Source: Eledone cirrhosa
Lineage: Eukaryota
Assembly (NCBI GenBank): GCA_964016885.1
Contig: OZ024742.1
Location: 34,782,001-34,846,000, forward strand
DNA length: 64,000 nucleotides
Direction: 5' to 3'
The notes beneath the pieces are model-generated. The model did no database searches. It was not told the origin of the DNA and saw only the letters and a list, made by a program, of their open reading frames with translations. Both the position numbers and the translations under genes were made by a program. Of this stretch, positions 1 through 62,046 are shown piece after piece. The stretch's first letter is position 1, and the number at the start of each line of letters is the position of its first letter.

Positions 1-2180
1 AGGAAAAGGTGAAATATAAGGGGAGATAAGGGAGAAAAACATACAAGAGTACAGAACGTGGATTCAGCAAATAAAAAAAACCGTAGCAGAAGTAAAGAGC
101 AGAGCAGGAGTTCAAGGCGGTTGATTTATCATAGGAGTATCAATCCAGTTACAGATCAGATGTGATTTCAGATGAGGACAGCATCTGAAGATCTCAGTCT
201 TTGAGTTAAGGCAAGCGGAAGTGGCTCTCAAGTTTAGCAAAATCCTATATTTTTCTGTGGTACACAAAGAACAATTCTTTGTGCCCCTTTGGTACTCCCT
301 CGAATGGTCTAAGATAAACCAATCGATAGAGTACGGGATGTTACTATCCTTGTATTCCCACACCTTACTTGCGAGGGCCGTTGATGTTCGTTTATCGGAG
401 TGCTTAAAAGAAGCGACATGTGAGTAAAATCTGGTTTTAAACCTGTCCTGGGTCATACCAACATATCGCTCACTCCTGGCTGGCTGGTTGTTGATTACCG
501 GTGTTATTTTAGCCTCATAAACAACAGATTTGGTGCTACATTTACCCTGCAATGGGCATTCATCCGGCTTCCTGCAACTGCATCCTGGATTTGTTCTCGT
601 ATGATTTGAACTGGTGATCTTGGACTTCATAGATGGGCAACAAGAGTAACTGATCTTAACTACGTTCCTATTAAATATCTTATAATATCTATGATTAGGA
701 GGAAAATGTTTGTCTAAGAGTTCAATGAATTTCCTTCCTACATTAGTTTTGACAGTTAGAGAGAAGGGGTGTGAACCAAATAATTTTCCTTTTCCTGTTA
801 ATGTGGTTAGTTTTAGGGGGGGGGGGGAGTAGGTAAATAAGAAATTTTTTCTGTAAAACCGCTGTTCTTAAGGGCTTTATTATAATAAGGGGCGGCTTTA
901 TTAAAAATGTCTATAGACGAAGATAAGGTAGAAATCCTACGGCTAATGTTAGGAATAAGATTATTAAAAACTATAGGGGGATGGCAAGACTCTTTGTGTA
1001 TATACCTAAGATTTTCATTAGGTTTATGATAGGGTTTAAAAGAGGCGGTAAGTAGATCAAGATTAATATCAAGAAAGTTAGCATTAGTAAGGTTCGTATC
1101 TATAGTGATTTTAAGGTTAAGATTAGCAAAAGTATTGATTAAATCTTTACGGAATTTATCAAGGTTATGGCCGTTGGTGGTATGAGAAACTGCTAATCCG
1201 TCATCACGGTATAAACCGATATTATGGGAAGGAAATTTCTCTTTGAGGGTGTGGAGAAGGAATAATCCTACTAAGTCACACACATCCGCACTGTCATATG
1301 AACCCATTGCAACATCAAAAGAGTTTTCAGGGTTTGACTTTTTAACCCAAATATTTTCATTAGTAAAGAGTAAAGTTTTTCTAGCATGAAAGATAATGTC
1401 TTCTTCTAATTTATAAATATTAATGAAGGGTCTTGCAAAATCTAAGGCATTAGTTAATAAGGAAACAGTAATAGAGGGTTAAAAATCGACAATATCAAAT
1501 TGGGTAAATCTACACTTATTTTTACCTTGTATATTATTAAACCAAGAAAGTGATAGGTCAGTATTAGTTCTAATTTGGAGAATTATTTTTCTTAAGATTT
1601 TTTTACTTGCAAGGCCAACTTCGGATTTAGCCGGGTTAATCAGTCTACAACTAGGTCGATTAGTAAAGTCCAATTTATGGTCTTTAAGGGTAATATATTC
1701 TTTACTCTTAGCTAGGCTTTCAATACGGTTGTCTATTTTTAAAGAACTATCTAGTTCTTTAGCTTCTTTATTGATAGTATTGTAGGTATTATTATTAGTT
1801 AATTGATATTTGTTGGTAATACTATTAGTTAAAAGTTGGTTATACAAAGTACTATTAACTTCAAAGAGATTTTTAATTTTATCAGAAAGAACAAAAGTGT
1901 TTGTAGAATTTCTAAAATTAGAAATATCGTTAGATAGTTTAGTTTGAAAGTTATTATTGTACTTACGAAATTTGATATCACTAATTAGATTAACAAGGTC
2001 TAATTCGAAGTTGGCCATATCTTTAATTCTAGGTGGATATTTACGGGATTTGATGTCAAAACAATCATTAGTATCAGCACTGAATAGTCCATCGTAACCA
2101 TTGCCTTCCATCTCATAATAATTAAGCTCTGTTACCTACATAGAGCACTCTTTTTTCCTGGACTTTTCCGACGGAATTAC

Positions 2181-2258: not shown

Positions 2259-2733
2259 TACAATATTAAATAAATGGAAAACTATATTTAATGGAAAACT
2301 ATATTTATAAAACCATATTTATTTCATTATATATATTTCGGGGATATCATATTAACAATATGCTATGCCTTCATCAGACAAAATACAATATAAACAGTTT
2401 TATAGATAAATATATTCGACATACCGTAATAAACATCAACTTCATTTGAAGAGGTTTACTCTAGCAGTAACTTCAAATGAAGTTGATGTTTATTACGGTA
2501 TGTCGAATATATTTATCTATAAAACTGTTTATATTGTATTTTGTCTGATGAAGGCATAGCATATTGTTAATATGATATCCCCGAAATATATATAATGAAA
2601 TAAATATGGTTTTTAAATATAGTTTTCCATTTATTTAATATTGTAAATATACTCCAAATATTTGTCGAGTGCTTTTATATCAGTTATAAATATTTACTAG
2701 TTGTAACCCAACAATTTTAAATATAACTTTACA
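2259..2733 (+). mobile_element. Non-coding PLE-type fold-back element, family A, within (TA)n
   Basis: Inverted arms ~2259-2451 / 2471-2645 plus a unique 3' tail to 2733. Contains an HHR. Related copies at 9702-10016 and ~43728-43930 (-). Confidence 0.85.
2537..2602 (+). ncRNA. Type I hammerhead ribozyme (minimal, palindromic stem III); mirror copy at 2320-2385 (-)
   Basis: Stem I TATTTTGT/ATGAAATA, core CTGATGA at 2545, long stem II (CATATT/AATATG), GAAA at 2583, T-ATAT-A, cleavage triplet ATA. Confidence 0.75.
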
Positions 2734-6419: not shown

Positions 6420-6488
<69 letters not shown>

Positions 6489-6718
6489 TGTATGTATAGT
6501 ATATTTGGCAATATACCGTATGTTTAATTAAAAACATTTAGAAGACCATACGCTATCGGTTTTAAAGTAGTGTCTATGTCACATTTCTTTTCGGTGAGAG
6601 AAAGGAGAGAATCTAACAGTCGGTTTCACGCTGGTTGGCGATCATCAAAGCCATATATATATTTCATTTCTGAATTTGTTTAGCAAGATTCTTTATCTGA
6701 AAACGTGTGTTGAAACCG

Positions 6719-7436
6719 ATATTGTTATACTTTGGGAGGGTCATGTTGCCAATAAGAAACACACGCACCAGTTGCTTTCACTTCAATTTATTATAAATTA
6801 AATTTATAAATATAGGAATTTATAAATTTCCGGTTGGTTGGTTGGTTCCACAACCAGATGATTGTTCATATATTGTCAAAGTTCTTTCGTCACACATTCT
6901 GTGACCTCTTCAGTGACTGGGGATTCTTTTCTTTGTTTTTGTGCCTCTCCTTTGTTCTGTCCTACGCCATCTTGTTTTTTGTGTGTTGTGTGCTTAGTTT
7001 GCGCATGTGTTACATCCGGGTGTCCGTGAATGGAACAGCAACATCACAACTTACAATTAAGGACAAAATGAAAACACACACACACATAGAACAAACAACC
7101 AACCGGTAACATGTAAATAAAGAAATAAATAAACAAATATAAACACACAGAGACACCCAGATGTAACACATGCGCAAACTAAGCACACAAAAACAAGATG
7201 GCGTAGGACAGAACAAAGGAGAGTTACAAAAACAAAGAAAAGAATCCCCAGTCACTGAAGAGGTCACAGAATGTGTGACGAAAGAACTTTGACAATATAT
7301 GAACAATCATCTGGTTGTGGAACAACCAACCGGAAATTTATAAATTCCTAAATTTATAAATTTAATTTATAATAAATTGAAGTGAAAGCAACTGGTGCGT
7401 GTGTTTCTTATTGGCAACAGGATCCTCCCAAAGTAT

Positions 7437-18270: not shown

Positions 18271-18589
18271 TGATTTTCTAGATGGTTGGTCTAGTTATTT
18301 AGTTGATCTAGTTATTTATCTGGCTAGTTGATTGAAGAGTTCATTCGTTCTTTCACGAAGTACTTTATATCAATAATAACTCCCAAGTGGTTGACACAAT
18401 AAAATAGAGTGAGTTGTTGCTACAATAATTTATTTTCATTTATAAATTGAAGAAGTCTGTGTGATTATTTTGATAATTCTGAGAAGTATGACTTGTGGGC
18501 GGTGAAAAGGGATACGTAGAGACGACATCTGCAAGATAAATATATAGTTAAGTGATGGGATCTAATGTACTTAATGTAGTGATCCAAAT

Positions 18590-18966
18590 AATTGTTCCTA
18601 CTGTTGTCACGAGGCCAGCAATTATCCTAGTGCATTACTGGTACTTTATTTTATCGACCCCGTAAGGATGAAAGGCAAAGTTAACCTCGGCGAGATTTGA
18701 TCTCAGAACGTAAAGGGCCATAACTCTATACTTAAAGCATTGTGTCTAACGCTCTACTAATGCTGCCAATTCCAAATAATTGTTTCTACTTTTGGCACAA
18801 GGCCAGCAATTATCCAGTGTATTACTGGTACTTTATTTTATCGACCCCTTAAGGATGAAAGGCAAAGTTAACCTCGGCGGGATTTGAACTCAGAATGGCA
18901 AGGGCCGTAACTCTATGCGTCAAAGCATGGCGTCCGACCCTCTACCGATACTGCCAATCCACCGCC
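18590..18966 (-). mobile_element. Two tandem Meta-like SINE copies
   Basis: Copies ~18590-18770 and 18778-18966; CCAAATAAT recurs at the junctions. Confidence 0.85.
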
Positions 18967-21158: not shown

Positions 21159-21527
21159 TAATCAAGGGAAAGCATCTTTGAATCCGTAATTCCGTAATAT
21201 GTTTCTAGTGAGTTATTGTCTCATTGTCTTGTCCGGCAAAAGAAATAATTCAGCACGTGTTTGGAACCTGGGTTGAAGGAAAAATGGGTGTTGTACTTGT
21301 AATCTATCTATCTATCTATCTATCTTGATGGAGTAAGACACGCTTCACATCGGCTCCGCTATTCCATCGAGATTTACCCTTACTATTGTAAGTACCGGAT
21401 AAATTTTTCAGTGCAACACATTTGGAACACTAACCCCTGTTTTTTAGGGAAACATTTTTGCATTTACCCCCTTTTTAGGGGGTAAAATAAATATCTATTT
21501 TTGCCGAAAAATTTCTTTCTTGGCAGC

Positions 21528-23361
21528 ATGGCGGAAAAGATGGCAGACATGTCTGCCATTAGCTCTGCCACGCCCCCCAAGTCTGAAGAACAAAAAATAA
21601 TTACAACAAAATTAGACAATGAAACAAACAAAGAAAATGAAAAAACAAATGTTAAGGAAAATGAGCAAACAGAAAACAAACAAACAGAAAATAATACAAA
21701 TAACAACAGGGCAACTTTCGCCCAGAAAACAAAACAATCCATTACATACACACCAATTGACCTAACTGCCGCCAGAGAAAAACTGGCCGAAGCAAAGAAA
21801 CACATTGTTTTGGGGGAGAACGGAATGTTTTCCATTAACTCCCCCCCCCAGAATTCAAGAAAGCCAGAACAGAAAGCACAGTTCTCTACAGAACTATACT
21901 GAACCAGACAAGAAAGCCAGCACAGCCCAGCCAAATGGAAATAGAGTTAGTCCTAAAAGACTATATGAAGAATATTCTCTTCATACGAAAGGACCGACTC
22001 TATGGCAGCATTTCGGTCCTAACAAGAGACAAGGAAACGGCGGAGAAGCTTTCCCTAAGCCCACTCTCATCGACAACATATAGCTTCTATCCCTCCTACA
22101 TGGGTAGAAGAACACAGAGAGTAAAAGTAAAAACAATGCTGCCCACAATGGACTTCTGGTGGGCTATTGCTGGCTTCATAGATATGGGCGAAGACACAAT
22201 GCTGTCAATGGGGAAGGCAACTGGAGATGCGTTCCTGGGAATGGGCCTCGACATACTAGTCCAAATGAGGCCCGAAAGAATAGCACAAATCCCGGATCGC
22301 ATCTGGCTGGATGACCTTACCCCAATAGACATAATTGTAGAGGGGAGAAGACCAGCATGCTATTTATGCATGGAAAGGGGACACGTTAAGGCTAACTGCC
22401 CGAAACGTATCCCCCAAAAAGGACTATTGCCCACACCCACCACAAACAGTACACCAACACCACCCACCTCCAAAAATACACTAATACCACACACAGCAAA
22501 CAAAATACAGACACCACCAACCACAAACACAACACAAACATCACCACCACCAGCACCAAACACAAGCACGACACAAAAATCACCACCACCAACAACAACA
22601 CAAACACCACCATCACCAACCACAAGCACGACACAAACATTACCACCACCACCACAAAACCCATTCCAAACAAATAATAAAAAAAACAGTAACAAATCTA
22701 CCCCTCCCGCAAAAAAAAAACAACCACACAACACGTCCCTCCCACCTAGCGCTGAAGAGTTTCCCCCAACTTCTGAAGAAGAAGGAGGAGAAGCCTTCAG
22801 ACAAGTTAAAAGAAAAAAAAGAAAACACACACCCAGCACACCACAAATAACCCACACACAAACACCAACTCCAATCAAAAACACCCCACCCTCAACAAAC
22901 AAAAATAAATCTGCGCCTCCCCTCTCCGAAACATTGACAGCATCACAAAAAAAGACGTTGCAATACACATATATAAATAAAGAAAACAAAAAACTGGTTA
23001 AATTAATAAACAATAACCCTATGGTGCAGACCGAAGGGCCAAACTTTATCTCGACAGAGAACTTCACCCATTTAAAAATGATAAAGGTCCCTCTGGACCT
23101 TTATCGTTCCTTAAAAGAACAATTTAGACGGGACGTGAGCCCCCCCCCCCCTGTTTAAAACCGTTGAATCGCGTCCTCTTGAAAGATTTCCCCATAACCG
23201 CCCCTCTCCCTGACACAACTCCAAATACCCCAACCCCACCACACACGTGTACCCCCACACCACCACAAAACATCCCTCCACCCAACACACCTGACGCCAT
23301 GGAAATTACACAACCCAGAGAGGTAAGTGCTTTTCTTTCTTCACTTTCAACACCAAAATAG
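21528..23361 (+). pseudogene. Tx1 ORF1 (gag-like, CCHC knuckle, Pro/Thr-rich), frameshifted at two poly-C runs
   Basis: ATG at 21528; CYLCMERGHVKANC. Segments 21501-21902, 21935-23158 and 23164-23361 join when the C-runs at ~21841 and ~23140 take copy 2 lengths. Confidence 0.8.
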
Positions 23362-23366
23362 ATCAA

Positions 23367-26300
23367 TTAAGAGTTGGCTGTTTGAACGCGCGTGGCCTGG
23401 GCTCTGCTTGGAAGCAAGCAAAGCTACTAAGTGACCTCAGGTCACGAAGTATAGATGTGATGGTTGTTTGCGAGAGTCGAATCAGCAGCGTGCGACAGCT
23501 GGCTCCCGCCTTCGATGACTTTGAGATGCACGCATCTCTCTGTCAACCCGGAGGCGGGGGGGGGGGGGAGTTGCCGTACTGCTGGATAAACGTCTGGCTC
23601 TCGACGTACAGATTGTTCACTCGGACCCGGGGGGTCGAATACTGGTGCTGGACGTCGGAGGCGGTGAAGGCGGGGCTTTCAGACTGGTCGGTCTTTATGC
23701 CCCCTTCGGGGCTGAAAGAGCCGACTTCTTCCAGCGTCTGGAGACTTTTCTAGGAACGTCGCGTTCCCTGCTTTTAGTGGGGGACTGGAATGGAATCCTA
23801 GATGCGCGTTGGGACTATGCAGGGGCATGTCCCGATAGAGGGGGGTGTAGCAGCCTCAAGGGGTTACTCGATCGATTCGACCTGGTCGATAGATTTCGAC
23901 TAGATTGTCCAACTGCGCCAACCTGGACCTGGGCAAACCGCAGTGGACAATCTAGATCGTACCTAGATAGGTTTTTGGTTAGGAGTAAGGATAGGGACGT
24001 ATTTAGTTGTCCAGAATTGATCATGGTTGGCTATTCAGATCACAAATTAGTGACCTGCGTGGTCAACCTTGATAGAACGCATAGACAGGGTCCCGGTTAC
24101 TGGAAGATGAACTTGTCCTTGCCGGCAAAGAAAGATTACAGGAACCGGATTAGTAGCTTAGTTAAGATGCGGTTGACGGGAGCGATTGTCAACAGTAGGT
24201 GGTGGGTATCTCTAAAGAGAGAGATTAGAGTAAGTTCGATAGGTTACAGTAAGGAACTAGCGGCGAATAGAAATAGGAAGGAAAGGGAGTTAACAGATAA
24301 ACTAGAAGAGGCGATTAGGAGCGGAGACGTAGCCAGAGTGTTAGCGGCTAGAACGGCGTTGAGCCAGTTCTTTGACGCGAAGCACGAAGGCTGCGTTGTC
24401 CGAAGTAAAATACGTGCTTTAGGAAACGAGGGGACCAAAGCTGTTAGCTGGGCCCGCGTGACAGAAGCCAAGAGTGGGATTAAATCCACCATTCGGTCTT
24501 TGCGAGACCAGGATGGACGGGTGATCCTTGAACCTGAGCGGATGTGCGAAGCCTTTCAAAGGCACTTTGCTCGACTGTTCGGAGGGGGCGGGGGGCCGGA
24601 CGGGGATGTGGACTTCGGTCCATTCCTCGACGGTCTACCGCGTCTTTCGAGCGGCGAAGCGGAGTGCTGCGAAAGGCCAATCACAGCCACTGAAATCGGG
24701 GAAGCTCTCAGCCAATGCAGCAGACGCAAATCTCCGGGTCTCGATGGTCTACCATACGAACTTTATTTAGCTATGCCGGTCTTGTTCTCCGAACTCCTCG
24801 AGGCTGTCTATTGCAACTGGCAACAGAACGGGAGAATTCCCTGTTCTGTGACCAAGGGCGTGGTCACGCTAGTGAGGAAGGACGAGAGCAAGGGGGACGA
24901 CTTAAGTAACTTTAGGCCCATAACTCTGCTGAATGCAGAGTTACAGATTTTGGCCAAGGTGTTGGCGAAGAGGTTGGCGCTTGTGGTGGGTGGTTTGGTG
25001 GGAGACGCGCAGACATGCGCTATCCCGTCCAGGTCCATTCACGACAACCTCCACCTCATGCGATACATCATAGAGAGGGTTGGCAACGAACCCGGCTTTG
25101 GTGGGGCCCTGATCAACTTGGATCAATCTAAGGCGTTCGATAGGGTCGACCATGGTTACCTGGAAGCGGTGCTAGCGGCGGCGGGCTTCGGACCCGTTTT
25201 CAGGGGCTGGATTTCTGCCATGCACAGTGGCAACATCTGCTCTAGGATTAAAGTAAACGGCTACCTCTCGGAGCCGTTTCAAATCACCCGGTCCATCAGA
25301 CAGGGGTGCCCCCTCTCCTCCCTTCTGTACGTATTGACTCTCGAGCCACTGCTGCGGAAGTTGGAGTTGCTGCGGGGCATACCCCTGGAACCGGGATTGC
25401 ACAAAGCGGTCTCGGCCTATGCCGACGACGTAACAGTAATGGTGGCGGACGCCTCGGAAATCGGGGCGATCGCCACCCTACGGGAGGAATACGAAAGGCT
25501 GACGGGGGCTAGGCTGAACCGGGACAAGTCAGTCGGTTTGCAACTCGGAACGTGGAGGGGCAAACCGATGCCGTTAGACGGTGTCGTCGGGCGGTGGACG
25601 GAGGGCCCGGTGAAGCTGCTCGGGGGCTGGTTCGGACCGGACCTCCAGGTGGAGAAGAATTGGGGCGAGGTGACGAGCAGGGTGTTTGCGCTGACCCAGA
25701 AGTGGGCCAAGTGCAAACTATCACTGAAAGGTCGGGCGGAGGTGACGAACGCTTACATAGCGTCCGTCATCTGCTACCGCCTGACCGTCGTGCCTTGTCC
25801 CAAGGAAAAGATCACCATCATGGAACGCATGCTCTTCCAGTTCCTCTGGAAGAAGCGGCCTCCCATGGTGAGGAGATCCATCTGCTGCCAGCACCCTTCG
25901 AAAGGAGGGCTGGGTATGCCGTGGCTGTTGATGCGTAGGCACGCATTGAGGCTACGGCATCTACAGGTATTCCTCACCGGTCAGCCGGTGTGGGCCCCGT
26001 TTGTGAGGCGAGCCTTCCCACAGCTCGTCTCGCTCACCGAGCTGCAATCCTGGGTGAAGCAAAGACCGAGAAAACTGGGCAACTGGCACACCGAGTGTGC
26101 CCAGGCGCTCACGGCTATCTGGCAAGCGGACCCAACTGTCGGTGGAGAATCCACCTCGACATTCTATAGAGGGCTGGTGGCTAGCAGGGGCGACGACACC
26201 CTTGGAGAGTCGCTAGGCATGGAGAAGGACGAACTGGCCAGCCTGTTCGGTAGAACTTTCGGCCCGGGACCCATGGACAACTTCCAGAGGTCCCTAGCCT

Positions 26301-26800
26301 GGCAGTGTTACCGGGGGGCTCTGCCCGTTCGAGAAAAGCTCTACAGACACGGGCGCCCGGGCAGGGATCCAGCGAAAAAGATCTGTCCCAGATGCGTGCG
26401 CGACTTGGAAACCGTTGCGCATGCACTGGTACACTGCCCGGGCGTTGCCGATCTGTGGGGCTACGTCGAACGACTGCTGTCGCGTGTGGCGCCGATTCGA
26501 TTAACCGCCGAGTCTGTGGTGAACATCAAGCCGCCTCCTCCCTTCAGAAATGAAGCAGAGGCGGTCTTTCTGTGCCTAATAGCCATGATGAAAGAGGTTG
26601 TGTGGTGGACGCGCCTGAAAGGTCTGAGGTCGGGTGACTTTCTCTCCGGCCATCACCTGGTTTACTTCTTCCGATACCACTTCGGAAGAAGGATCAGGAT
26701 GGAGAGAGAAGTGCTTGGCCCCAGACAGTTTTATGAAAGGTGGGTGAAAGAAGCGAGAATGGCTCGTGTAAATGGGCCTTCTCTCTACATTGTTCTGTAG
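23367..26800 (+). CDS. Tx1 ORF2: APE endonuclease + reverse transcriptase + C-terminal Zn motif (one frameshift at poly-G 23556-23568)
   Basis: GCLNARG, VCES, GDWN, YLDRF, SDH; KSPGLDG, FRPITLLN, DQSKAFDRV, QGCPLS, YADD; CPRC..ETVAHALVHC. 1051 aa open from 23645. Confidence 0.92.
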
Positions 26801-27059
26801 GTGAAGAAGTGAAGAGGAAAGGGGGAGCGCCTCCTCTCTGGGCTTCCCCTGCGAAAAGGGTTGCACACTTTTCGGGGGTATGTGCAATCCCGAACACGCC
26901 CCCTCCCTTTTGAGGACTTTTTATTATTATATTATTATTGTTATTCCTTTTTCTTTACTCGATTTATGTAAACTCCCCCACTGTGTATTTGTCCCCTTCT
27001 TTTGTGCCCTCGTGGCAAATAAATAGAAATTTATCTATCTATCTATCTATCTATCTATC

Positions 27060-30000
27060 TTGATAGAGTAAGACACGCTTCGCATCGGCTCCGCTATTCC
27101 ATCGGGATTTACCCTTACTATTGTAAGTACCGGATAAATTTTTTAGTGCCACACATTTGGAACACTAACCCCTGTTATTTAGGGAAACATTTTTGCATTT
27201 ACCCCCTTTTTAGGGGGTAAAATAAATATCTATTTTTGCCGAAAAATTTCTTTCTTGGCAGCATGGCGGAAAAGATGGCAGACATGTCTGCCATTAGCTC
27301 TGCCACGCCCCCCAAGTCTGAAGAACAAAAAATAATTACAACAAAATTAGACAATGAAACAAACAAAGAAAATGAAAAAACAAATGTTAAGGAAAATGAG
27401 CAAACAGAAAACAAACAAACAGAAAATAATACAAATAACAACAGGGCAACTTTCGCCCAGAAAACAAAACAATCCATTACATACACACCAATTGACCTAA
27501 CTGCAGCCAGAGACAAACTGGCCGAAGCAAAGAAACACATTGTTTTGGGGGAGAACGGAATGTTTTCCATTAACTCCCCCCCAGAATTCAAGAAAGCCAG
27601 AGCAGAAAACACAGTTCTCTATAGAACTATACTGAACCAGACAAGAAAGCCAGCACAGCCCAGCCAAATGGAAATAGAGTTAGTCCTAAAAGACTATATG
27701 AAGAATATTCTCTTCATACGAAAGGACCGACTCTATGGCAGCATTTCGGTCCTAACATGAGACAAGGAAACGGCGGAGAAGCTTTCCCTAAGCCCACTCT
27801 CATCGACAACATATAGCTTCTATCCCTCCTACATGGGTAGAAGAACACAGAGAGTAAAAGTAAAAACAATGTTGCCCACAATGGACTTCTGGTGGGCTAT
27901 TGCTGGCTTCATTGATATGGGCGAAGACACAATGCTGTCAATGGGGAAGGCAACTGGAGATGCGTTCCTGGGAATGGGCCTCGACATACTAGTCCAAATG
28001 AGGCCCGAAAGAATAGCACAAATCCCGGATCGCATCTGGCTGGATGACCTTACCCCAATAGACATAATTGTACAGGGGAGAAGACCAGCATGCTATTTAT
28101 GCATGGAAAGGGGACACGTTAAGGCTAACTGCCCGAAACGTATCCCCCAAAAAGGACTATTGCCCACACCCACCACAAACAGTACACCAACACCACCCAC
28201 CTCCAAAAATACACTAATACCACACACAGCAAACAAAATACAGACACCACCAACCACAAACACAACACAAACATCACCACCACCAGCACCAAACACAAGC
28301 ACAACACAAAAATCACCACCACCAACAACAACACAAACACCACCATCACCAACCACAAGCACGACACAAACATTACCACCACCACCACAAAACCCATTCC
28401 AAACAAATAATAAAAAAAACAGTAACAAATCTACCCCTCCCGCAAAAAAAAAACAACCACACAACACGTCCCTCCCACCTAGCGCTGAAGAGTTTCCCCC
28501 AACTTCTGAAGAAGAAGGAGGAGAAGCCTTCAGACAAGTTAAAAGAAAAAAAAGAAAACACACACCCAGCACACCACAAATAACCCACACACAAACACCA
28601 ACTCCAATCAAAAACACCCCACCCTCAACAAACAAAAATAAATCTGCGCCTCCCCTCTCCGAAACATTGACAGCATCACAAAAAAAGACGTTGCAATACA
28701 CATATATAAATAAAGAAAACAAAAAACTGGTTAAATTAATAAACAATAACCCTATGGTGCAGACCGAAGGGCCAAACTTTATCTCAACATAGAACTTCAC
28801 CCATTTAAAAATGATAAAGGTCCCTCTGGACCTTTATCGTTCCTTAAAAGAACAATTTAGACGGGACGTGAGCCCCCCCTGTTTAAAACCGTTGAATCGC
28901 GTCCTCTTGAAAGATTTCCCCATAACCGCCCCTCTCCCTGACACAACTCCAAATACCCCAACCCCACCACACACGTGTACCCCCACACCACCACAAAACA
29001 TCCCTCCACCCAACACACCTGATGCCATGGAAATTACGCAACCCGGAGAGGTAAGTGCTTTTCTTTCTTCACTTTCAACACCAAAATAGATCAATTGAGA
29101 GTTGGCTGTTTGAACGCGCGTGGCCTGGGCTCAGCTTGGAAGCAAGCAAAGCTTCTAAGTGACCTCAGGTCACAAAGTATAGATGTGATGGTTGTTTGCG
29201 AGAGTCGGATCAGCAGCGTGAGACAGCTGGCGCCCGCCTTCGATGACTTTGAGATGCACGCATCTCTCTGTCAACCCGGAGGCGGGGGGGGAGTTGCCGT
29301 ACTGCTGGATAAACGTCTGACTCTCGACGTACAGATTGTTCACTCGGACCCGGGGGGTCGATTACTGGTGCTGGACGTCGGAGGCGGTGAAGGCGGGGCT
29401 TTCAGACTGGTCGGTCTTTATGCTCCCTTCGGGGCGGAAAGAGCCGACTTCTTCCAGCGTCTGGAGACTTTTCTAGGAACGTCGCGTTCCCTGCTTTTAG
29501 TGGGGGACTGGAATGGAATCCTAGATGCGCGTTGGGACTATGCAGGGGCATGTCCCGATAGAGGGGGGTGTAGCAGCCTCAAGGGGTTACTCGATCGATT
29601 CGACCTGGTCGATAGATTTCGACTAGATTGTCCAACTGCGCCAACCTGGACCTGGGCAAACCGCAGTGGACAATCTAGATCGTACCTAGATAGGTTTTTG
29701 GTTAGGAGTAAGGATAGGGACGTATTTAGTTGTCCAGAACTGATCATGGTTGGCTATTCAGATCACAATTAGTGATCTGCGTGGTCAACCTTGATAGAAC
29801 GCATAGACAGGGTCCCGGTTACTGGAAGATGAACTTGTCCTTACCGACAAAGAAAGATTACAGAAACCGGATTAGTAGCTTAGTTAAGATGCGGTTGACG
29901 GGAGCGATTGTCAACAGTAGGTGGTGGATATCTCTAAAGAGAGAGATTAGAGTAAGTTCGATAGGTTACAGTAAGGAACTAGCAGCGAATAGAAATAGGA

Positions 30001-32753
30001 GGGAATGGGAGTTAACAGATAAACTAGAAGAGGCGATTAGGAGCGGAGACGTAGCCAGAGTGTTAGCGACGAGAACGGCATTGAGCCAGTTCTTTGACGC
30101 GAAGCACGAAGGCTGCGTTGTCCGAAGTAAAATACGTGCTTTAGGAAACAAGGGGACCAAAGCTGTTAGCTGGGCCCGCGTGACAGAAGCCAAGAGTGGG
30201 ATTAAATCCACCATTCGGTCTTTGCGAGACCAGGATGGACGGGTGATCCTTGAACCTGAGCGAATGTGCGAGACCTTTCAAAGGCACTTTGCTCGACTGT
30301 TCGGAGGTGGCGGGGGGCCGGACGGGGATGTGGACTTCGGTCCATACCACGACGGTCTACCGCGTCTTTCGAGCGGCGAAGCGGAGTGCTGCGAAAGGCC
30401 AATCACAGCCACTGAAATCGGGGAAACGCTCAGCCAATGCAGCAGACGCAAATCCCCGGGTCTCGATGGTCTACCATACGAACTTTATTTAGCTATGCCG
30501 GTCTTGTTCTCCGAACTCCTCGAGGCTGTCTATTGCAACTGGCAACAGAACGGGAGAATTCCCTGTTCTGTGACCAAGGGCGTGGTCACGCTAGTGAGGA
30601 AGGACGAGAGCAAGGGGGACGACTTAAGTAACTTTAGGCCCATAACTCTGCTGAATGCAGAGTTACAGATTTTGGCCAAGGTGTTGGCGAAGAGGTTGGC
30701 GCTTGTGGTGGGTGGTTTGGTGGGAGACGCGCAGACATGCGCTATCCCGTCCAGGTCCATTCACGACAACCTCCACCTCATGCGATACATCATAGAGAGG
30801 GTTGGCTACGAACCCGGCTTTGGTGGGGCCCTGATCAACTTGGATCAATCTAAGGCGTTCGATAGGGTCGACCATGGTTACCTGGATGCGGTGCTAGCGG
30901 CGGCGGGCTTCGGACCCGTTTTCAGGGGCTGGATTTCTGCCATGCACAGTGGCAACATCTACTCTAGGATTAAAGTAAACGGCTACCTCTCGGAGCCGTT
31001 TCAAATCACCCGATCCATCAGACAGGGGTGCCCCCTCTCCTCCCTTCTGTACGTATTGACTCTCGAGCCACTGCTGCGGAAGTTGGAGATGCTGCGGGGC
31101 ATACCCCTGGAACCGGGATTGCACAAAGCGGTCTCGGCCTATGCCGACGACGTAACAGTAATGGTGGCGGACGCCTCGGATATCGGGGCGATCGCCACCC
31201 TACTGGAGGAATACGAAAGGCTGACGGGGGCTAAGCTGAACCAGGACAAGTCAGTCGGTTTGCAACTCGGAACGTGGAGGGGCAAACCGATGCCGTTAGA
31301 CGGTGTCGTCGGGCGGTGGACGGAGGGCCCGGTGAAGCTGCTCGGGGTCTGGTTCGGACCGGACCTCCAGGTGGAGAAGAATTGGGGCGAGGTGACGAGC
31401 AGGGTGTTTGCGCTGACCCAGAAGTGGGCCAAGTGCAAACTATCACTGAAAGGTCGGGCGGAGGTGACGAACGCTTACATAGCGTCCGTCATCTACTACC
31501 GCCTGACCGTCGTGCCTTGCCCCAATGAAAAGCTCACCATCATGGAACGCATGCTCTTCCAGTTCCTCTGGAAGAAGCGGCCTCCCATGGTGAGGAGATC
31601 CATCTGCTGCCAGCACCCTTCGAAAGGAGGGCTGGGTATGCCGTGGCTATTGATGCGTAGGCACGCATTGAGGCTACGGCATCTACAGGTATTCCTCAAC
31701 GGTCAGCCGGTGTGGGCCCCGTTTGTGAGGCGAGCCTTCCCACAGCTCGTCTCGCTCACGGAACTGCAATCCTGGGTGAAGCAAAGACCGAGAAAACTGG
31801 GCAACTGGCACACAGAGTGTGCCCAGGCACCCACGGCTATCTGGCAAGCGGACCCGACTGTCAGTGGAGAATCCACCTCGACATTCTATAGAGGGTTGGT
31901 GGCTAGCAGGGGCGACGACACCCTTGGAGAGTCGCTAGGCATGGAGGAGGACGAACTGGCCATCCTGTTCGGTAGAACTTTCGGCCCGGGACCCATGGAC
32001 AACTTCCAGAGGTCCCTAGCCTGGCAGTGTTACCGGGGGGCTCTGCCCGTTCGAGAAAAGCTCTACAGACACGGGCGCCCGGGCAGGGATCCCGCGAAAA
32101 AGATCTGCCCCAGATGCGTGCGCGACGAGGAAACCGTTGCGCATGCACTGGTACACTTCCCGGGCGTTGCCGATCTGTGAGGCTACGTCGAACGACTGCT
32201 GTCGCGTGTGGCGCCGATTCGATTAACCGCCGAGTCTGTGGTGAACATCAAGCCGCCTCCTCCCTTCAGAAATGAAGCAGAGGCGGTCTTTCTGTGCGTA
32301 ATAGCCATGATGAAAGAGGTTGTGTGGTGGACGCGCCTGAAAGGTCTGAGGTCGGGTGACTTTCTCTCCGTCCATCACCTGGTTTACTTCTTCCGATACC
32401 ACTTCGGAAGAAAAATCAGGATGGAGAGAGAAGTGCTTGGTCCCAGACAGTTTTATGAAAGGTGGGTGAAAGAAGCGAGAATGGCCCGTGTAAATGGGCC
32501 TTCTCTCTACATTGTTCTGTAGGTGAAGAAGTGAAGAGGAAAGGGGGAGCGCCTCCTCTCTGGGCTTTCCCCGCGAAAAGAGTTGCACACTTTTCGGGGG
32601 TATGTGCAATCCCCAACACGCCCCCTCCCTTTTGAGGACATTTTATTGTTATATTATTATTGTTATTCCTTTTTTCTTTACTCGATTTATGTAAACTCCC
32701 CCACTGTGTAAATGTCCCCTTCTTTTGTGCCCTCGTGGCAAATAAATAGAAAT

Positions 32754-32755
<2 letters not shown>
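27060..32755 (+). mobile_element. Full-length Tx1-clade element, copy 2 (very similar to copy 1, with nonsense mutations)
   Basis: Collinear with copy 1. Stops at 27758, 28790 and 32178, 1-nt deletion near 29768. Flanked by (TATC)n. Confidence 0.93.
29095..32522 (+). pseudogene. Tx1 ORF2 copy 2, disrupted
   Basis: ORFs 29095-29772, 29730-32180 and 32208-32522 match copy 1 ORF2. Confidence 0.9.
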
Positions 32756-32790
<35 letters not shown>

Positions 32791-35162
32791 GATAGAGGAC
32801 GTGCTGAGCCAATGCGGCAAACGCAAATCCCCGGGTCTCGATGGTCTTCCTTACGAATTATATCTAGCTATGCCGGACTTGTTCCCCGATCTCCTCGAGG
32901 CGGTCTACTGCAACTGGCAACAGAACGGGAGAATTCCCTGTACTGTGACCAAGGGCGTAGTCACGCTAGTGAGGAAGGACGAGAACAAGGGGGACGAAAT
33001 AAGTAACTTCAGGCCCATAACACTGCTAAATACAGAGTTACAGATTTTGGCCAAGGTGCTAGCAAAGAGGTTGGCGCTTGTCGTGGGCAACCTGGTGGGA
33101 GATGCGCAGACATGCGCTATCCCGTCCAGGTCCATCCATGACAACCTCCACCTCATGCGATACATCATAGAGAGGGTTGGGAACGAACCCGGCTTTGGTG
33201 GGGCTCTGATCAACTTGGATCAATCTAAGGCGTTCGATAGGGTCGACCATGGTTACCTGGATGCGGTGCTAGCGGCGGAAGGCTTCGGACCCGTTTTCAG
33301 GGGCTGGATCACTGCTATGCACAGCAGCCGCATCTGCTCTAGGGTCAAGGTGAACGGCTACCTCTCGGAGCCGTTCAAAATCGCGCGGTCCATCCGACAA
33401 GGGTGCCCTCTCCTCCTCCCTTCTGTATGTGTTGACTCTCGAGCCACTACTGCGGAAGTTGGAATTGTTGCAGGGCATCCCTTTGGAACCGGGATTGCGG
33501 AAAGCGGTGTCGGCCTACGCCGATGACGTGACAGTAATGGTGTCGACGGCCTCCGAAATCGAGGCGGTCGGCACCTTACTGGAGGAGTACGAAAAGTTCA
33601 CAGGGGCTAAGCTGAACCGGGACAAGTCGATCGGTTTGCAACTCGGCACGTGGAGGGGCAGACCGATGCCCTCCGATGGCGTCGTCGGACGCTGGACGGA
33701 GGGCCCGGTGAAGTTGCTCGGGGTCTGGTTCGGACCGGACCTCCAGGTGGAGAAAAACTGGGCGGAGGTTACGAACAGGGTGTTTGCACTGACCCAGAAG
33801 TGGGCCAGTTGCAAACTATCCCTGAAAGGTCGGGCGGAGGTGGCGAACACCTACATAGCGTCCGTCATCTACTACCGCCTGACCGTAGTGCCCTGCCCAA
33901 GGGAAACCCTCACCAAGATGGAGCGCGCGCTCTTCCAATTCCTTTGGAAGAGGCGGGCTCCTATGGTGAGGAGATCCATCTGCTGTCAACACCCTTCGAA
34001 AGGAGGGCTGGGGATGCCGTGGCTAATGATGCGTAAACACGCATTAAGGCTACGGCACCTCTACGTATTCCTCACCGGACAACCGGTGTGGGCCTCGTTT
34101 GTGAGACGAACCTTTCCCAGACTCGTCTCACTCACCGAGCTGCAATCCTGGGTCAAGCAAAGACCGAGAAAACTGGGCGCCTGGCACACTGAGTGTGCCC
34201 AGGCGCTCACCGCCCTCTGGCAGGCGGATCCGGTTATCAGTGGAGACTCCACCGCAACATTCTATAGAGGGCTGGTACGCAGCAGGTGCGACGACGCCCT
34301 CGGAGAAGCCCTAGACATGGAGGAGGACGAACTGGCCAGCCTGTTCGGTAGGACATTCAGCCCGGGACCTATGGACAACTTCCAGAAGTGCCTGGCCTGG
34401 CAGTGCTACCGAGGGGCTTTACCCGTTCGAGAAAGGCTCTACAGACACGGGCGCCCGGGTAGGGACCCCGCCAAAAAGATCTGTCCCAGATGCGTGTGCG
34501 ACGAGGAAACCGTTGCACACGCATTGGTACACTGCTCGGGCGTAGCCGATCTGTGGGGCTATGTCGAACAACTGCTGTCAAGGGTGGGACCGATCCGGTT
34601 GACCACCGAGTCTATTGTAATGATCAAGCCGCCTCCCCCCTTCAAAGATGAAGCAGAGGCGGTGTTTCTGTGCGTAATAGCCATGGCGAAAGAGGTTGTA
34701 TGGTGGACGCGTCTGAAAGGACTGAGGTCAGGCACCTTTCTCTCTGGCCAACAACTGGTCCGTTTCTTCCGATATCATTTCGGAAGAAGGATCAGGATGG
34801 AGAGAGAGGTGCTGCACCCCAGCCGTTTCTATGAAAGAATGGTGAAAGTGGCGAGAATGGCCCGTGTGAATGGGCCTTCACTCTACATCAGACTATAGGT
34901 GAGGAAGATGAAAGACCAAGGGAGCACCCCTTCTCTGTGCTCCTGAGGAGAAGGGTTGCACACTTTTTTCGGGGGTGTGTGCGACCCCCCAAGGCGCCTC
35001 CTCTCTATTGAGGATTTTGTTAAAAATTTTATTTTTTGTTATATCTTATTTTATTTTTATATTTTGTTATTGCCTCCTCCTTATTGAGGACGCCTTTTTG
35101 TGTAAACTCCCCCCTTTGTACTTGTCCCACTTTTGATGCCCTAGTGGCAAATAAAAGAAACA
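32791..35162 (+). mobile_element. 5'-truncated Tx1-clade element, copy 3 (diverged subfamily)
   Basis: Starts at the beginning of the RT. ORFs 32801-33526 and 33429-34898 (frameshift ~33415). Different 3'UTR with similar terminus GTGGCAAATAAAAGAAA; (TATC)n on both sides. Confidence 0.92.
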
Positions 35163-35235
<73 letters not shown>

Positions 35236-48335: not shown

Positions 48336-48697
48336 ATTATTAGAAATGTAAGCTATCGCTATATTTTGACTAAAGAACTTAAAGAAATTATTTAGCCTGA
48401 TAGTGGGGTTAAGAACCCTCGGAGAAATGGAAAAAGATGAGTATTGACGTACATAGGAGTCGAACCCACATCTTTGGTTATCCAGACCACTGTGCTACCA
48501 TTCACACCAACATATCATGGGTGATGTGTTGGTGTAAATGGTAGCACAGTGGTCTGGATAACCAAAGATGTGGGTTTGACTCCTATGTACGTCAATACTC
48601 ATCTTTTTCCATTTCTCCGAGGGTTCTTAACCCCACTATCAGGCTAAATAATTTCTTTAATTTCTTTATTCAAAATACGGCGATAGCTTACATTTCT

Positions 48698-53428: not shown

Positions 53429-53484
<56 letters not shown>

Positions 53485-53808
53485 TTAGTAGAACCTTAAT
53501 GAATTTAGCTTTTAAAGAATCTCCCTTTCCTTTAAATCTATCTACCATGACTGACCCCCCACTGATCTTATAGACACCTGTTAGCTTAAGAGAAACTTAA
53601 TAACAAGGAATGGCAGGCCATCCTGAACCTGTTTATAGAATTCTGTCTGCCTTTGTTACTCTCAAAACAAAAATAAACTATAGCTTTGTAGAATTAGCTT
53701 TTAATGAATTCCCTTTTCTATCAACCAATGACCTACACCCATCCCACTCCCCACCCTCTCCTACCACTTGTAGAGACCTATAAATACCATACTTATTTTT
53801 TGATACCC

Positions 53809-53859
53809 AGATTCCTGATGATTTCTAAAGAATGAAACAGTTCTAGTCCTGTAGAATCT
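53809..53859 (+). ncRNA. Near-canonical type I hammerhead ribozyme in a (TA)n-flanked element (~53482-53946)
   Basis: Stem I AGATTC/GAATCT, CTGATGA, stem II TTC-TAAA-GAA, GAA, stem III ACAG/CTGT, triplet GTA. Decayed relative at ~45315-45365 (-). Confidence 0.85.
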
Positions 53860-53941
53860 CATCTATATTAAACATTTTATACTCTGCAATGTATTGAGTA
53901 CCTTACTTACTGTGGTTACCTCCGATTCAACCCGGAATAAC

Positions 53942-53993
<52 letters not shown>

Positions 53994-58426: not shown

Positions 58427-59557
<1,131 letters not shown>

Positions 59558-61419
59558 TTGGAATAAATGCTCTGAAATAGCGATATATATGTGAATATAG
59601 ACATAGAATATTCGAAAATATTCTGTATGTTTATAATAAACATTTTGAAGACCTAATCGCTATAGAATAGAATACGTCACGTATTACAATTAGATTCTCG
59701 ATAAAAGCAAGGGAAGTAATCTACGCGTTTCATTCTTGTTAGAAATCATCAGGACTACATATCCAGTGCTTTTATCGAGAATGACACAGCTAGAGACTTA
59801 TAGAATACTTAGCTGTGTACAGGAACTGGTTTGAAAGAGCGGTTGCCGGTCCGGCAGAAATTAGAAATTGGAATAAATGCTCTGAAATAGCGATATATAT
59901 GTGAATATAGACATAGAATATTCGAAAATATTCTGTATGTTTATAATAAACATTTTGAAGACCTAATCACTATAGAATAGAATACGTCACGTATTACAAG
60001 CACTGGATATGTAGTCCTGATGATTTCTAACAAGAATGAAACGCGTAGATTACTTCCCTTGCTTTTATCGAGAATCTAATTGTAATACGTGACGTATTCT
60101 ATTCTATAGCGATTAGGTCTTCAAAATGTTTATTATAAACATACAGAATATTTTCGAATATTCTATGTCTATATTCACATATATATCGCTATTTCAGAGC
60201 ATTTATTCCAATTTCTAATTTCTGCCGGACCGGCAACCGCTCTTTCAAACCAGTTCCTGTACACAGCTAAGTATTCTATAAGTCTCTAGCTGTGTCATTC
60301 TCGATAAAAGCACTGGATATGTAGTCCTGATGATTTCTAACAAGAATGAAACGCGTAGATTACTTCCCTTGCTTTTATCGAGAATCTAATTGTAATACGT
60401 GACGTATTCTATTCTATAGCGATTAGGTCTTCAAAATGTTTATTATAAACATACAGAATATTTTCGAATATTCTATGTCTATATTCACATATATATCGCT
60501 ATTTCAGAGCATTTATTCCAATTTCTAATTTCTGCCGGACCGGCAACCGCTCTTTCAAACCAGTTCCTGTACACAGCTAAGTATTCTATAAGTCTCTAGC
60601 TGTGTCATTCTCGATAAAAGCACTGGATATGTAGTCCTGATGATTTCTAACAAGAATGAAACGCGTAGATTACTTCCCTTGCTTTTATCGAGAATCTAAT
60701 TGTAATACGTGACGTATTCTATTCTATAGCGATTAGGTCTTCAAAATGTTTATTATAAACATACAGAATATTTTCGAATATTCTATGTCTATATTCACAT
60801 ATATATCGCTATTTCAGAGCATTTATTCCAATTTCTAATTTCTGCCGGACCGGCAACCGCTCTTTCAAACCAGTTCCTGTACACAGCTAAGTATTCTATA
60901 AGTCTCTAGCTGTGTCATTCTCGATAAAAGCACTGGATATGTAGTCCTGATGATTTCTAACAAGAATGAAACGCGTAGATTACTTCCCTTGCTTTTATCG
61001 AGAATCTAATTGTAATACGTGACGTATTCTATTCTATAGCGATTAGGTCTTCAAAATGTTTATTATAAACATACAGAATATTTTCGAATATTCTATGTCT
61101 ATATTCACATATATATCGCTATTTCAGAGCATTTATTCCAATTTCTAATTTCTGCCGGACCGGCAACCGCTCTTTCAAACCAGTTCCTGTACACAGCTAA
61201 GTATTCTATAAGTCTCTAGCTGTGTCATTCTCGATAAAAGCACTGGATATGTAGTCCTGATGATTTCTAACAAGAATGAAACGCGTAGATTACTTCCCTT
61301 GCTTTTATCGAGAATCTAATTGTAATACGTGACGTATTCTATTCTATAGCGATTAGGTCTTCAAAATGTTTATTATAAACATACAGAATATTTTCGAATA
61401 TTCTATGTCTATATTCACA

Positions 61420-61420
<1 letters not shown>
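59558..61420 (+). mobile_element. Retrozyme-like array: 310-bp HHR-bearing unit, ~1.4 inverted copies (59558-59999) + ~4.6 direct copies (59998-61420), in (TA)n
   Basis: Exact 310-nt period (GTAGTCCTGATGA at 60011, 60321, 60631, 60941, 61251). Reverse HHR at 59716-59758. No listed ORF spans a unit. Confidence 0.9.
60011..60053 (+). ncRNA. Type I hammerhead ribozyme (repeats every 310 nt, five + copies)
   Basis: Stem I GTAGTC/GATTAC, CTGATGA, stem II TTCT-AACA-AGAA, GAAAC-GC-GTA (palindrome ACGCGT). Cleavage predicted after 60047. Confidence 0.9.

Positions 61421-62046
<626 letters not shown>

What the first reader, a model, noticed from the sequence alone, without database searches (positions are those of the whole stretch)
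60297..60610. The array unit folds into a densely paired RNA with an extended HHR stem I
Seen: a perfect 16-bp inverted repeat ATTCTCGATAAAAGCA / TGCTTTTATCGAGAAT brackets the HHR. It extends stem I across an internal loop (CTGGATAT / TTCCCT). The unit also has AGAATATT-TTCG-AATATTCT (UUCG loop), AATACG-TGA-CGTATT inside CTAATTG/CGATTAG, and TGCCGG-A-CCGGCA. Known: internal-loop/loop II contacts speed cleavage in the Schistosoma Sm-alpha type I HHR, and a palindromic 2-bp stem III favours dimeric HHRs. Inference: selection on RNA structure; the long stem I would hold both cleaved ends together for circularisation.
Basis: partly seen in the sequence, partly recalled or inferred. Interest (0 to 1): 0.75.

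Follow-up and report, generated by a model that had tools for sequence, protein, structure and literature searches.

The report
Two-armed hammerhead retrozyme with covarying stem
This 310-base repeat, present in thousands of copies in an animal genome, carries a predicted self-cutting RNA whose long stem is kept by paired base changes in older relatives, and its back-to-back insertions suggest that it is likely copied round and round from an RNA circle by the enzyme of a Penelope-type jumping gene.

Summary
The 16-bp inverted repeat is real and extends hammerhead stem I. The unit folds better than shuffles (z -4.2 to -5.0), but so does the opposite strand. The decisive support is covariation: in 40 older relatives 10 of its 16 pairs change on both sides and over 90% of cells stay paired. 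Three details need correcting: stem III is 1 bp as a monomer, CTAATTG/CGATTAG is a minor helix, and the 1-nt loop is a triloop. The unit is a young non-LTR retrozyme (about 8,200 or more copies). A two-hammerhead precursor is predicted to fold as a double hammerhead that releases the monomer with its ends already clamped. Insertions sit in (TA)n as head-to-head multimer arms: 97 of 100 pair one fixed end with a second end mostly 26-33 nt further on, and both arms share a haplotype in 44 of 44. This is Penelope insertion anatomy, likely made on a circular template. Cleavage, circles and the partner enzyme are not shown. Apparent presence in other organisms' runs is carry-over in 3 of 3 tested. 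The scan noted this family's two-armed anatomy before on other DNA.

The parts
59995..61426 (+). Forward arm: 4.6 tandem 310-bp units; outer (3') end at unit position 139, the AU-run start site
59557..59999 (-). Inverted arm: 1.43 units; outer end at unit position 165 (26-nt tail); shares 5 nt with the forward arm at the centre
60358..60667 (+). Monomer between two predicted cleavage sites (unit positions u1-u310)
60297..60312 (+). 5' strand of the 16-bp extended stem I
60370..60385 (+). 3' strand of the 16-bp extended stem I
60313..60320 (+). Internal loop, 5' side (partner 60364-60369); predicted to pair partly
60321..60363 (+). Type I hammerhead: stem I 60321-60326 with 60358-60363, CUGAUGA 60327-60333, stem II 60334-60347 with basal U.U, GAA, palindrome ACGCGU 60351-60356, predicted cut after A60357 (GUA)
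   Evidence: sequence; Rfam HH9 19.2 bits, below its gathering score of 52
60394..60408 (+). 6-bp hairpin AAUACG/CGUAUU (p about 0.9); relatives have a 6-bp hairpin here in another register
60416..60502 (+). Long interrupted hairpin (u59-u145) capped by AGAAUAUU-UUCG-AAUAUUCU (60455-60474); start site 1 (60496) lies at its base; region conserved across subfamilies
60497..60529 (+). Tail between start site 1 (u139) and start site 2 (u165 = 60522; alternatives to u172)
60533..60545 (+). 5-bp UGCCG/CGGCA hairpin
60571..60605 (+).
58843..59558 (.). Left (TA)n target tract
61419..62040 (.). Right (TA)n target tract

Best explanation
The unit is a young, high-copy non-LTR retrozyme whose RNA is predicted to cut itself as a double hammerhead, is likely sealed into a 310-nt circle, and is likely copied into (TA)n tracts by a Penelope-type RT/GIY-YIG enzyme from two fixed start sites. 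SHOWN: type I hammerhead sequence; 16-bp stem with compensatory changes in relatives; thousands of near-identical copies; head-to-head multimer arms with one fixed end each; one haplotype per insertion. PREDICTED by folding: in a tandem transcript ACGCGU of one hammerhead pairs with ACGCGU of the next, and stem I swaps partners so that u1-28 pairs with u250-279 of the same unit; the monomer leaves with its 5' end clamped and its 3' end tethered 31 nt away, and in a monomeric circle the active fold costs 6.7 kcal/mol, which would keep the circle intact. INFERRED from published systems: a host RtcB-type ligase closes the circle; the PLE protein cuts both strands of (TA)n; one DNA end primes at u139 and the other at u165-172; each RT runs several times round the same circle; the two cDNAs join by a few nt of microhomology.
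For: Stem: 10 of 16 pairs with changes on both sides, 93.0% and 90.7% of cells paired in its two helices; whole structure 92.0% against 83.9% shuffled and 31-49% slid. RNAalifold recovers 8 of the 16 pairs unprompted. In the young family 3 of 4 insertion-wide substitutions in the stem keep pairing against 1 of 11 sporadic changes (p 0.033), and no insertion-wide change hits a conserved core base. Core pair in relatives: 52 C3-G8, 43 U3-A8, 5 mixed in the first 100 listed of 3603 (counted by hand). Double hammerhead is the unconstrained MFE of a two-ribozyme precursor (-109.9 against -94.9 for two active single folds). Copies: 4177 exact 43-mers plus 4090 hits of the second pattern, 98 of the 100 listed being this family's A10.1 variant; 1006 ends at u165 and 497 at u139 run straight into (AT)n. 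108 head-to-head pairs against 1 tail-to-tail; 97 of 100 closed pairs are u139 plus u157-172 and none has the same end twice; 5' ends flat (5 of 216 near the cut site); 208 of 244 arms exceed one unit. Centre overlap of 4 nt or more in 44 of 108 against 1.9% at random. Same haplotype in both arms in 44 of 44 (chance 0.097 each); 24 of 94 insertions carry a haplotype seen only once in the sample. Published PLE anatomy and biochemistry match: inverted 5'-truncated copy, 30-40 nt tail on one end, (TA)n bias; both strands cut and extended, two internal start sites define the tail.
Against: No RNA evidence of cleavage, ligation or circles. The minus strand folds as well as the plus strand. The 40 relatives fall into a few subfamilies, so compensatory cells are not independent events, and they were picked by anchored patterns. 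The double hammerhead is favoured only 0.62 to 0.38 over the local fold, and in a three-ribozyme precursor the middle unit folded locally. Stem II has U.U at 10.1-11.1, which went with weak cleavage in axolotl HHR_Amex2. In vitro a PLE did not need hammerhead cleavage and used uncut RNA, so internal starts do not by themselves prove a circle. 11 of 100 sporadic variants recur within an insertion, showing some later DNA-level duplication. No autonomous PLE sharing the start-site region was found: one young family was checked and has no sequence match. Most loci were chosen for having one of the two ends; the clusters chosen by hammerhead alone show the same rule but are fewer.
Confidence: 0.7

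Rival explanations
1. Same element and same PLE enzyme, but the template is an uncut linear read-through transcript of an existing array; no circle is needed and the stem serves folding or protein binding.
For: PLE RT starts internally and preferred unprocessed RNA in vitro; the ribozyme has weak stems II and III; source arrays of over 20 units exist.
Against: 24 of 94 insertions have a haplotype seen once, fixed in all units and in both arms, which needs a single-unit bottleneck; none of 100 sporadic variants sits at the same register in both arms; core and stems stay under selection.
Confidence: 0.2
2. Arrays grew locally as satellite DNA by unequal crossover from single pLTR-derived insertions (the route discussed in Li et al. 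2026), and the fold is a by-product.
For: Repeated variants in some long arms, for example a period-7 block in L035.
Against: Both inverted arms are multimeric, with non-integer lengths, flat 5' ends, fixed complementary 3' ends and one shared haplotype; compensatory changes.
Confidence: 0.05
3. A viroid-like or horizontally spreading RNA shared by many organisms.
For: 20 runs from 16 studies hold 76-100% of its words; three hold it as one closed 340-nt contig.
Against: The same three runs also hold the host's SINE and other high-copy repeats at low depth and no long single-copy stretch; one other run holds single-copy host DNA at 100% (the SINE 31-mer has 68,117 copies); 0 reads in 1.9 Gb of Hi-C under one of the other organism labels. 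This is carry-over of host DNA.
Confidence: 0.02

Closest known systems
Metazoan non-LTR retrozymes of coral, mussel and axolotl (Cervera and de la Pena 2020, PMC7229834; review PMC7761336)
   Same: Tandem non-coding units of 150-450 bp with a type I hammerhead, low GC, thousands of copies, self-paired fold; axolotl HHR_Amex1 has the same 1-bp helix III with a palindromic tetraloop and HHR_Amex2 the same basal U.U in helix II; both work best as dimers.
   Different: Described as direct tandem repeats; the word 'inverted' does not occur in the main text. No two-armed insertions, fixed start sites or tail are described in the parts read. Expression and cleavage were shown there, not here.
EN+ Penelope-like elements (Craig et al. 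2021, 10.1101/2021.04.23.441226; Frangieh et al. 2024, PMC11167929)
   Same: Inverted 5'-truncated copy beside a direct copy, tail on one end only, AT-rich or (TA)n target, two internal RT start sites, hammerhead upstream of the start sites.
   Different: This unit has no ORF; both arms are multimers of a 310-nt unit; the tail is mostly 26-33 nt; each end shows short AT microhomology to the target, whereas PAc started without homology.
Li, Clavereau and Pollet 2026 preprint (10.64898/2026.07.22.740005)
   Same: Concludes that animal retrozymes are non-autonomous PLE derivatives, from co-occurrence and pLTR similarity.
   Different: Vertebrate-centred; discusses arrays as local amplification; gives no insertion-level footprint of the copying step in the text read.
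Dimeric hammerheads of newt satellite and PLE pLTRs (PMC4209133)
   Same: Short helix III with palindromic loop, active in tandem and silent in monomeric circles; U3-A8 core variant already reported.
   Different: Here a 16-bp covarying extension of helix I is added, which is predicted to pre-close the monomer.

Membership tests
Non-LTR retrozyme | Type I hammerhead in every unit | tested here: met
   Core, stems and GUA site read from sequence in all 6 window copies; Rfam HH9 only 19.2 bits, below gathering
Non-LTR retrozyme | Tandem units of 150-450 bp, GC under 50%, non-coding | tested here: met
   310 bp, 106 of 310 G+C; no ORF of 120 aa within the units
Non-LTR retrozyme | Dispersed in many loci | tested here: met
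   4177 and 4090 hits; 1006 and 497 ends
Non-LTR retrozyme | Stable self-paired fold under selection | tested here: met
Non-LTR retrozyme | Self-cleavage in vitro | not testable with these tools
   Only folding energies
Non-LTR retrozyme | Expressed as linear and circular RNA | not testable with these tools
   No suitable RNA run was available to lay
Non-LTR retrozyme | Target-site duplication | tested here: inconclusive
   225 of 236 closed ends abut (TA)n, where a duplication cannot be read
PLE-type insertion | Inverted 5'-truncated copy, head to head | tested here: met
   108 pairs among 244 arms
PLE-type insertion | Tail on one end only (two start sites) | tested here: met
   97 of 100 closed pairs
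PLE-type insertion | AT-rich or (TA)n target | tested here: met
   225 of 236 ends
PLE-type insertion | Sequence shared with an autonomous PLE pLTR | tested here: inconclusive
   Core plus stem II match a 9393-copy hammerhead that in L289 precedes an open PLE RT frame; the start-site region matched no PLE checked
Canonical (Sm-alpha-like) type I hammerhead | G10.1-C11.1 base pair | tested here: not met
   U.U here, A-U in the variant counted; G-C or A-U in most relatives
Canonical (Sm-alpha-like) type I hammerhead | Loop I / loop II tertiary contacts | not testable with these tools
   Two loop II positions vary among founding haplotypes

The most novel reading that the evidence does not exclude
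Each insertion is a fossil of one RNA circle reverse-transcribed from both ends of a double-strand break by a PLE dimer, one subunit per start site, and the covarying long stem I together with the ACGCGU palindrome is a built-in switch: cut in tandem precursors, pre-closed for ligation, silent as a circle. Recurrent A-to-G changes in the stems (u20, u276) would be ADAR marks carried into DNA, and the family may have taken its ribozyme core from a PLE pLTR.
Probability: 0.4. Interest if true: 0.72.

Novelty: new variant of a known kind. Interest (0 to 1): 0.53.

Why it matters
How animal retrozymes get back into the genome is open: rolling-circle copying by PLE enzymes is proposed in PMC7229834 and the 2026 preprint but not shown in the parts read. 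A family with over a thousand very young insertions, two defined start sites, a strict one-site-per-arm rule and a 310-nt template gives a minimal substrate for the PLE in vitro system of PMC11167929. It also offers an explanation of why retrozyme circles are not cut by their own ribozyme. The ribozyme and the fold alone are ordinary for this class.

Tried and rejected
DNA search of G000 with the unit returned nothing because common words are skipped; patterns were used. Rfam at gathering threshold found no hammerhead. No RNA holder was listed; this is no evidence on expression. ADAR asymmetry: 6 A>G against 6 T>C sites among insertion-wide changes, so not supported by site counts; only the recurrence of A276G (UAG context, 4 lineages) and A20G (3 lineages) is a hint. 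Telomerase-like synthesis of the flanking tracts: no strand bias (33 against 39 and 18 against 22 loci). The young PLE family of L129 as partner: two 3' ends in (TA)n but no sequence match. The GIY-YIG ORF at L289:3-332 first looked linked to the related hammerhead but is separated from it by another element and a TA run; the linked ORF is downstream. The perfect 20/20 C3-G8/U3-A8 split is forced by my search patterns and was re-counted with a neutral pattern. The AAUACG hairpin cannot be scored for covariation because relatives use another register. PMC5785218 is not held and was not read. The search of earlier findings by sequence gave nothing.

Full report
Observation. The finding covers one unit of a 310-bp tandem array (59995-61426, 4.6 units). 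An inverted arm of 1.43 units (59557-59999) sits directly to its left, and both outer ends run into (TA)n tracts. The 16-bp inverted repeat is beyond chance (0 of 1000 shuffles above 12 bp). The unit folds at z -4.35 and the circular monomer at -67.8 kcal/mol, z -4.2, 60% paired; scrambling one arm of the stem costs about 13 kcal/mol. The minus strand folds as well. Stem III is 1 bp in a monomer, CTAATTG/CGATTAG is a minor alternative (p 0.38), the CCGG hairpin has a triloop, and the internal loop partly pairs.

Ribozyme. The unit reads as a type I hammerhead with a predicted cut after 60357 (sequence); Rfam gives only a sub-threshold HH9 match. Stem II has a basal U.U pair. This is not decay: 4177 copies carry it exactly, a second pattern finds 4090 hits of which 98 of the 100 listed are the A-U variant of this family, and a 9393-copy hammerhead with nearly the same core and stem II lies 176 nt before an open PLE RT frame in L289 (1 of 30 loci fetched). 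The family may therefore be a chimera of an older retrozyme body and a PLE ribozyme core (inference). For a two-ribozyme precursor the unconstrained MFE is the double hammerhead (-109.9; ACGCGU duplex p 0.61) against -94.9 for two active single folds; in the circle the active fold lies 6.7 kcal/mol above the MFE. The preference is modest (0.62 to 0.38), and with three ribozymes the middle one folded locally.

Covariation. Copies of the young family are about 99.5% identical and cannot show covariation, but older related families exist (4563 hits; 1928 and 1660 hits). I aligned the window unit with 40 of 60 fetched relatives: 19 failed a completeness filter, of which one was added back, and one duplicate and one deleted copy were left out. 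For the extended stem, 10 of 16 pairs change on both sides and 93.0% and 90.7% of cells pair; stem II has 4 of 4 and the AGAAUAUU hairpin 2 of 10. The whole structure beats 500 shuffles on four measures (5 of 500 reach it on the fifth) and all slid controls. RNAalifold finds 8 of the 16 pairs by itself. The loop-proximal pairs are poorly kept (17 and 5 unpaired cells at the last two stem pairs, 18 and 26 at the distal stem I pairs), and the relatives form few subfamilies, so these are not independent events. With a neutral pattern the core pair is C3-G8 in 52, U3-A8 in 43 and mixed in 5 of the first 100 listed; U3-A8 is published (PMC4209133, passages). Within the young family, insertion-wide changes spare the conserved core and keep the stem in 3 of 4 sites, against 1 of 11 for sporadic changes.

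Insertion anatomy. Among 244 non-redundant arms, almost all from contigs C1 and C2, there are 108 head-to-head pairs, 1 tail-to-tail contact and 28 unpaired arms (8 cut by the fetched stretch or a gap). Of 100 pairs closed at both ends, 97 join an end at u139 with one at u157-172 (72 at u165), and none has the same end twice. 5' ends are flat over the unit, 208 of 244 arms exceed one unit, and 225 of 236 ends abut (TA)n. Genome-wide there are 1006 exact u165 ends and 497 exact u139 ends; the latter pattern misses two haplotypes. The central junction overlaps by 4 nt or more in 44 of 108 against 1.9% at random. Both arms share their haplotype in 44 of 44 insertions with two or more full units per arm; 24 of 94 insertions have a haplotype seen once. 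Older relatives end at the same two places (read). Most loci were selected by one end, which cannot force the other end.

Mechanism. This is the anatomy of PLE insertions: inverted truncated copy, tail on one end, (TA)n bias (Craig et al., passages). A purified PLE cuts and extends both strands of AT-rich DNA from two internal start sites that define the tail (PMC11167929, parts 1-2 of 4). I infer one start site per DNA end, several rounds on one template, and joining by microhomology. A circle explains why rare haplotypes fill every unit of both arms. A linear uncut multimer remains a rival, because the same paper found hammerhead cleavage unnecessary in vitro. Some later duplication within arms occurs (11 of 100 sporadic variants recur). 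The partner was not found: a young PLE family (150 of 150 scored candidates at 97-100% identity, frames to 741 aa) shows two 3' ends in (TA)n but no sequence match.

Other organisms. Twenty runs from 16 studies hold the unit, three of them as one closed 340-nt contig. The same three also hold the host SINE and other repeats at low depth without long single-copy stretches, and a fourth holds single-copy host DNA at 100%. This is carry-over, not transfer.

Comparison and novelty. It works like, and meets the testable features of, animal non-LTR retrozymes (PMC7229834: abstract, parts 2-4 of 6 of the body, passages; review PMC7761336, passages). Dimeric action and silence in circles are published ideas. 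The link to PLEs is proposed there and in the 2026 preprint (parts 1-3 of 5). I found no description of two-armed retrozyme insertions or of cephalopod retrozymes in the papers read from searches; most subscription papers and all supplements were out of reach. Earlier notes of this scan report the same anatomy for this and sister families on other DNA. Verdict: observation partly confirmed, structure under selection, known class with an informative insertion footprint; interest 0.53.

Noticed in passing
window 112-2135 (-): Broken Penelope-like element (RT with YRDDGL, C-terminal GIY-YIG-like part), split over three frames; Pfam found no family in two pieces.
   Followed up: partly
window 6476-6660 (-): Old truncated relative of this retrozyme, ending at the equivalent of u139 in (TA)n.
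   Followed up: yes
window 53482-53945 (+): Fragment with the 9393-copy hammerhead that shares core and U.U stem II with the unit; the same sequence precedes an open PLE ORF in L289.
   Followed up: partly
window 21302-35200: Two tandem 5.7-kb LINE copies (98% identical) with endonuclease, RT and zf-RVT plus a diverged partial third, separated by (TATC)n.
   Followed up: no
window 48445-48594: Two tRNA-like sequences back to back on opposite strands, probably a head-to-head pair of a tRNA-derived repeat.
   Followed up: no
window 2377-2545, 6913-7255, 9828, 37152, 39457, 43917, 51637: Several other hammerhead-like motifs, some as inverted pairs, suggesting many more ribozyme-bearing repeat families.
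   Followed up: no
L255-L283: Young PLE family with a long 3' region, an odd CAGAAGA hammerhead-like core and two 3' ends about 90 nt apart in (TA)n.
   Followed up: partly
alignment A1, stem III: Stem III is a perfect palindrome in 12 of 41 rows, in four different lengths, hinting at dimeric action across the superfamily.
   Followed up: partly
L104, L106, L113, L125, L158, L068: One-base insertions in the 3' strand of stem I, 2 nt after the cut site, fixed in 7 of 94 insertions on more than one background.
   Followed up: no
window 18583-18958: Very abundant SINE; one 31-mer has 68,117 exact copies.
   Followed up: partly
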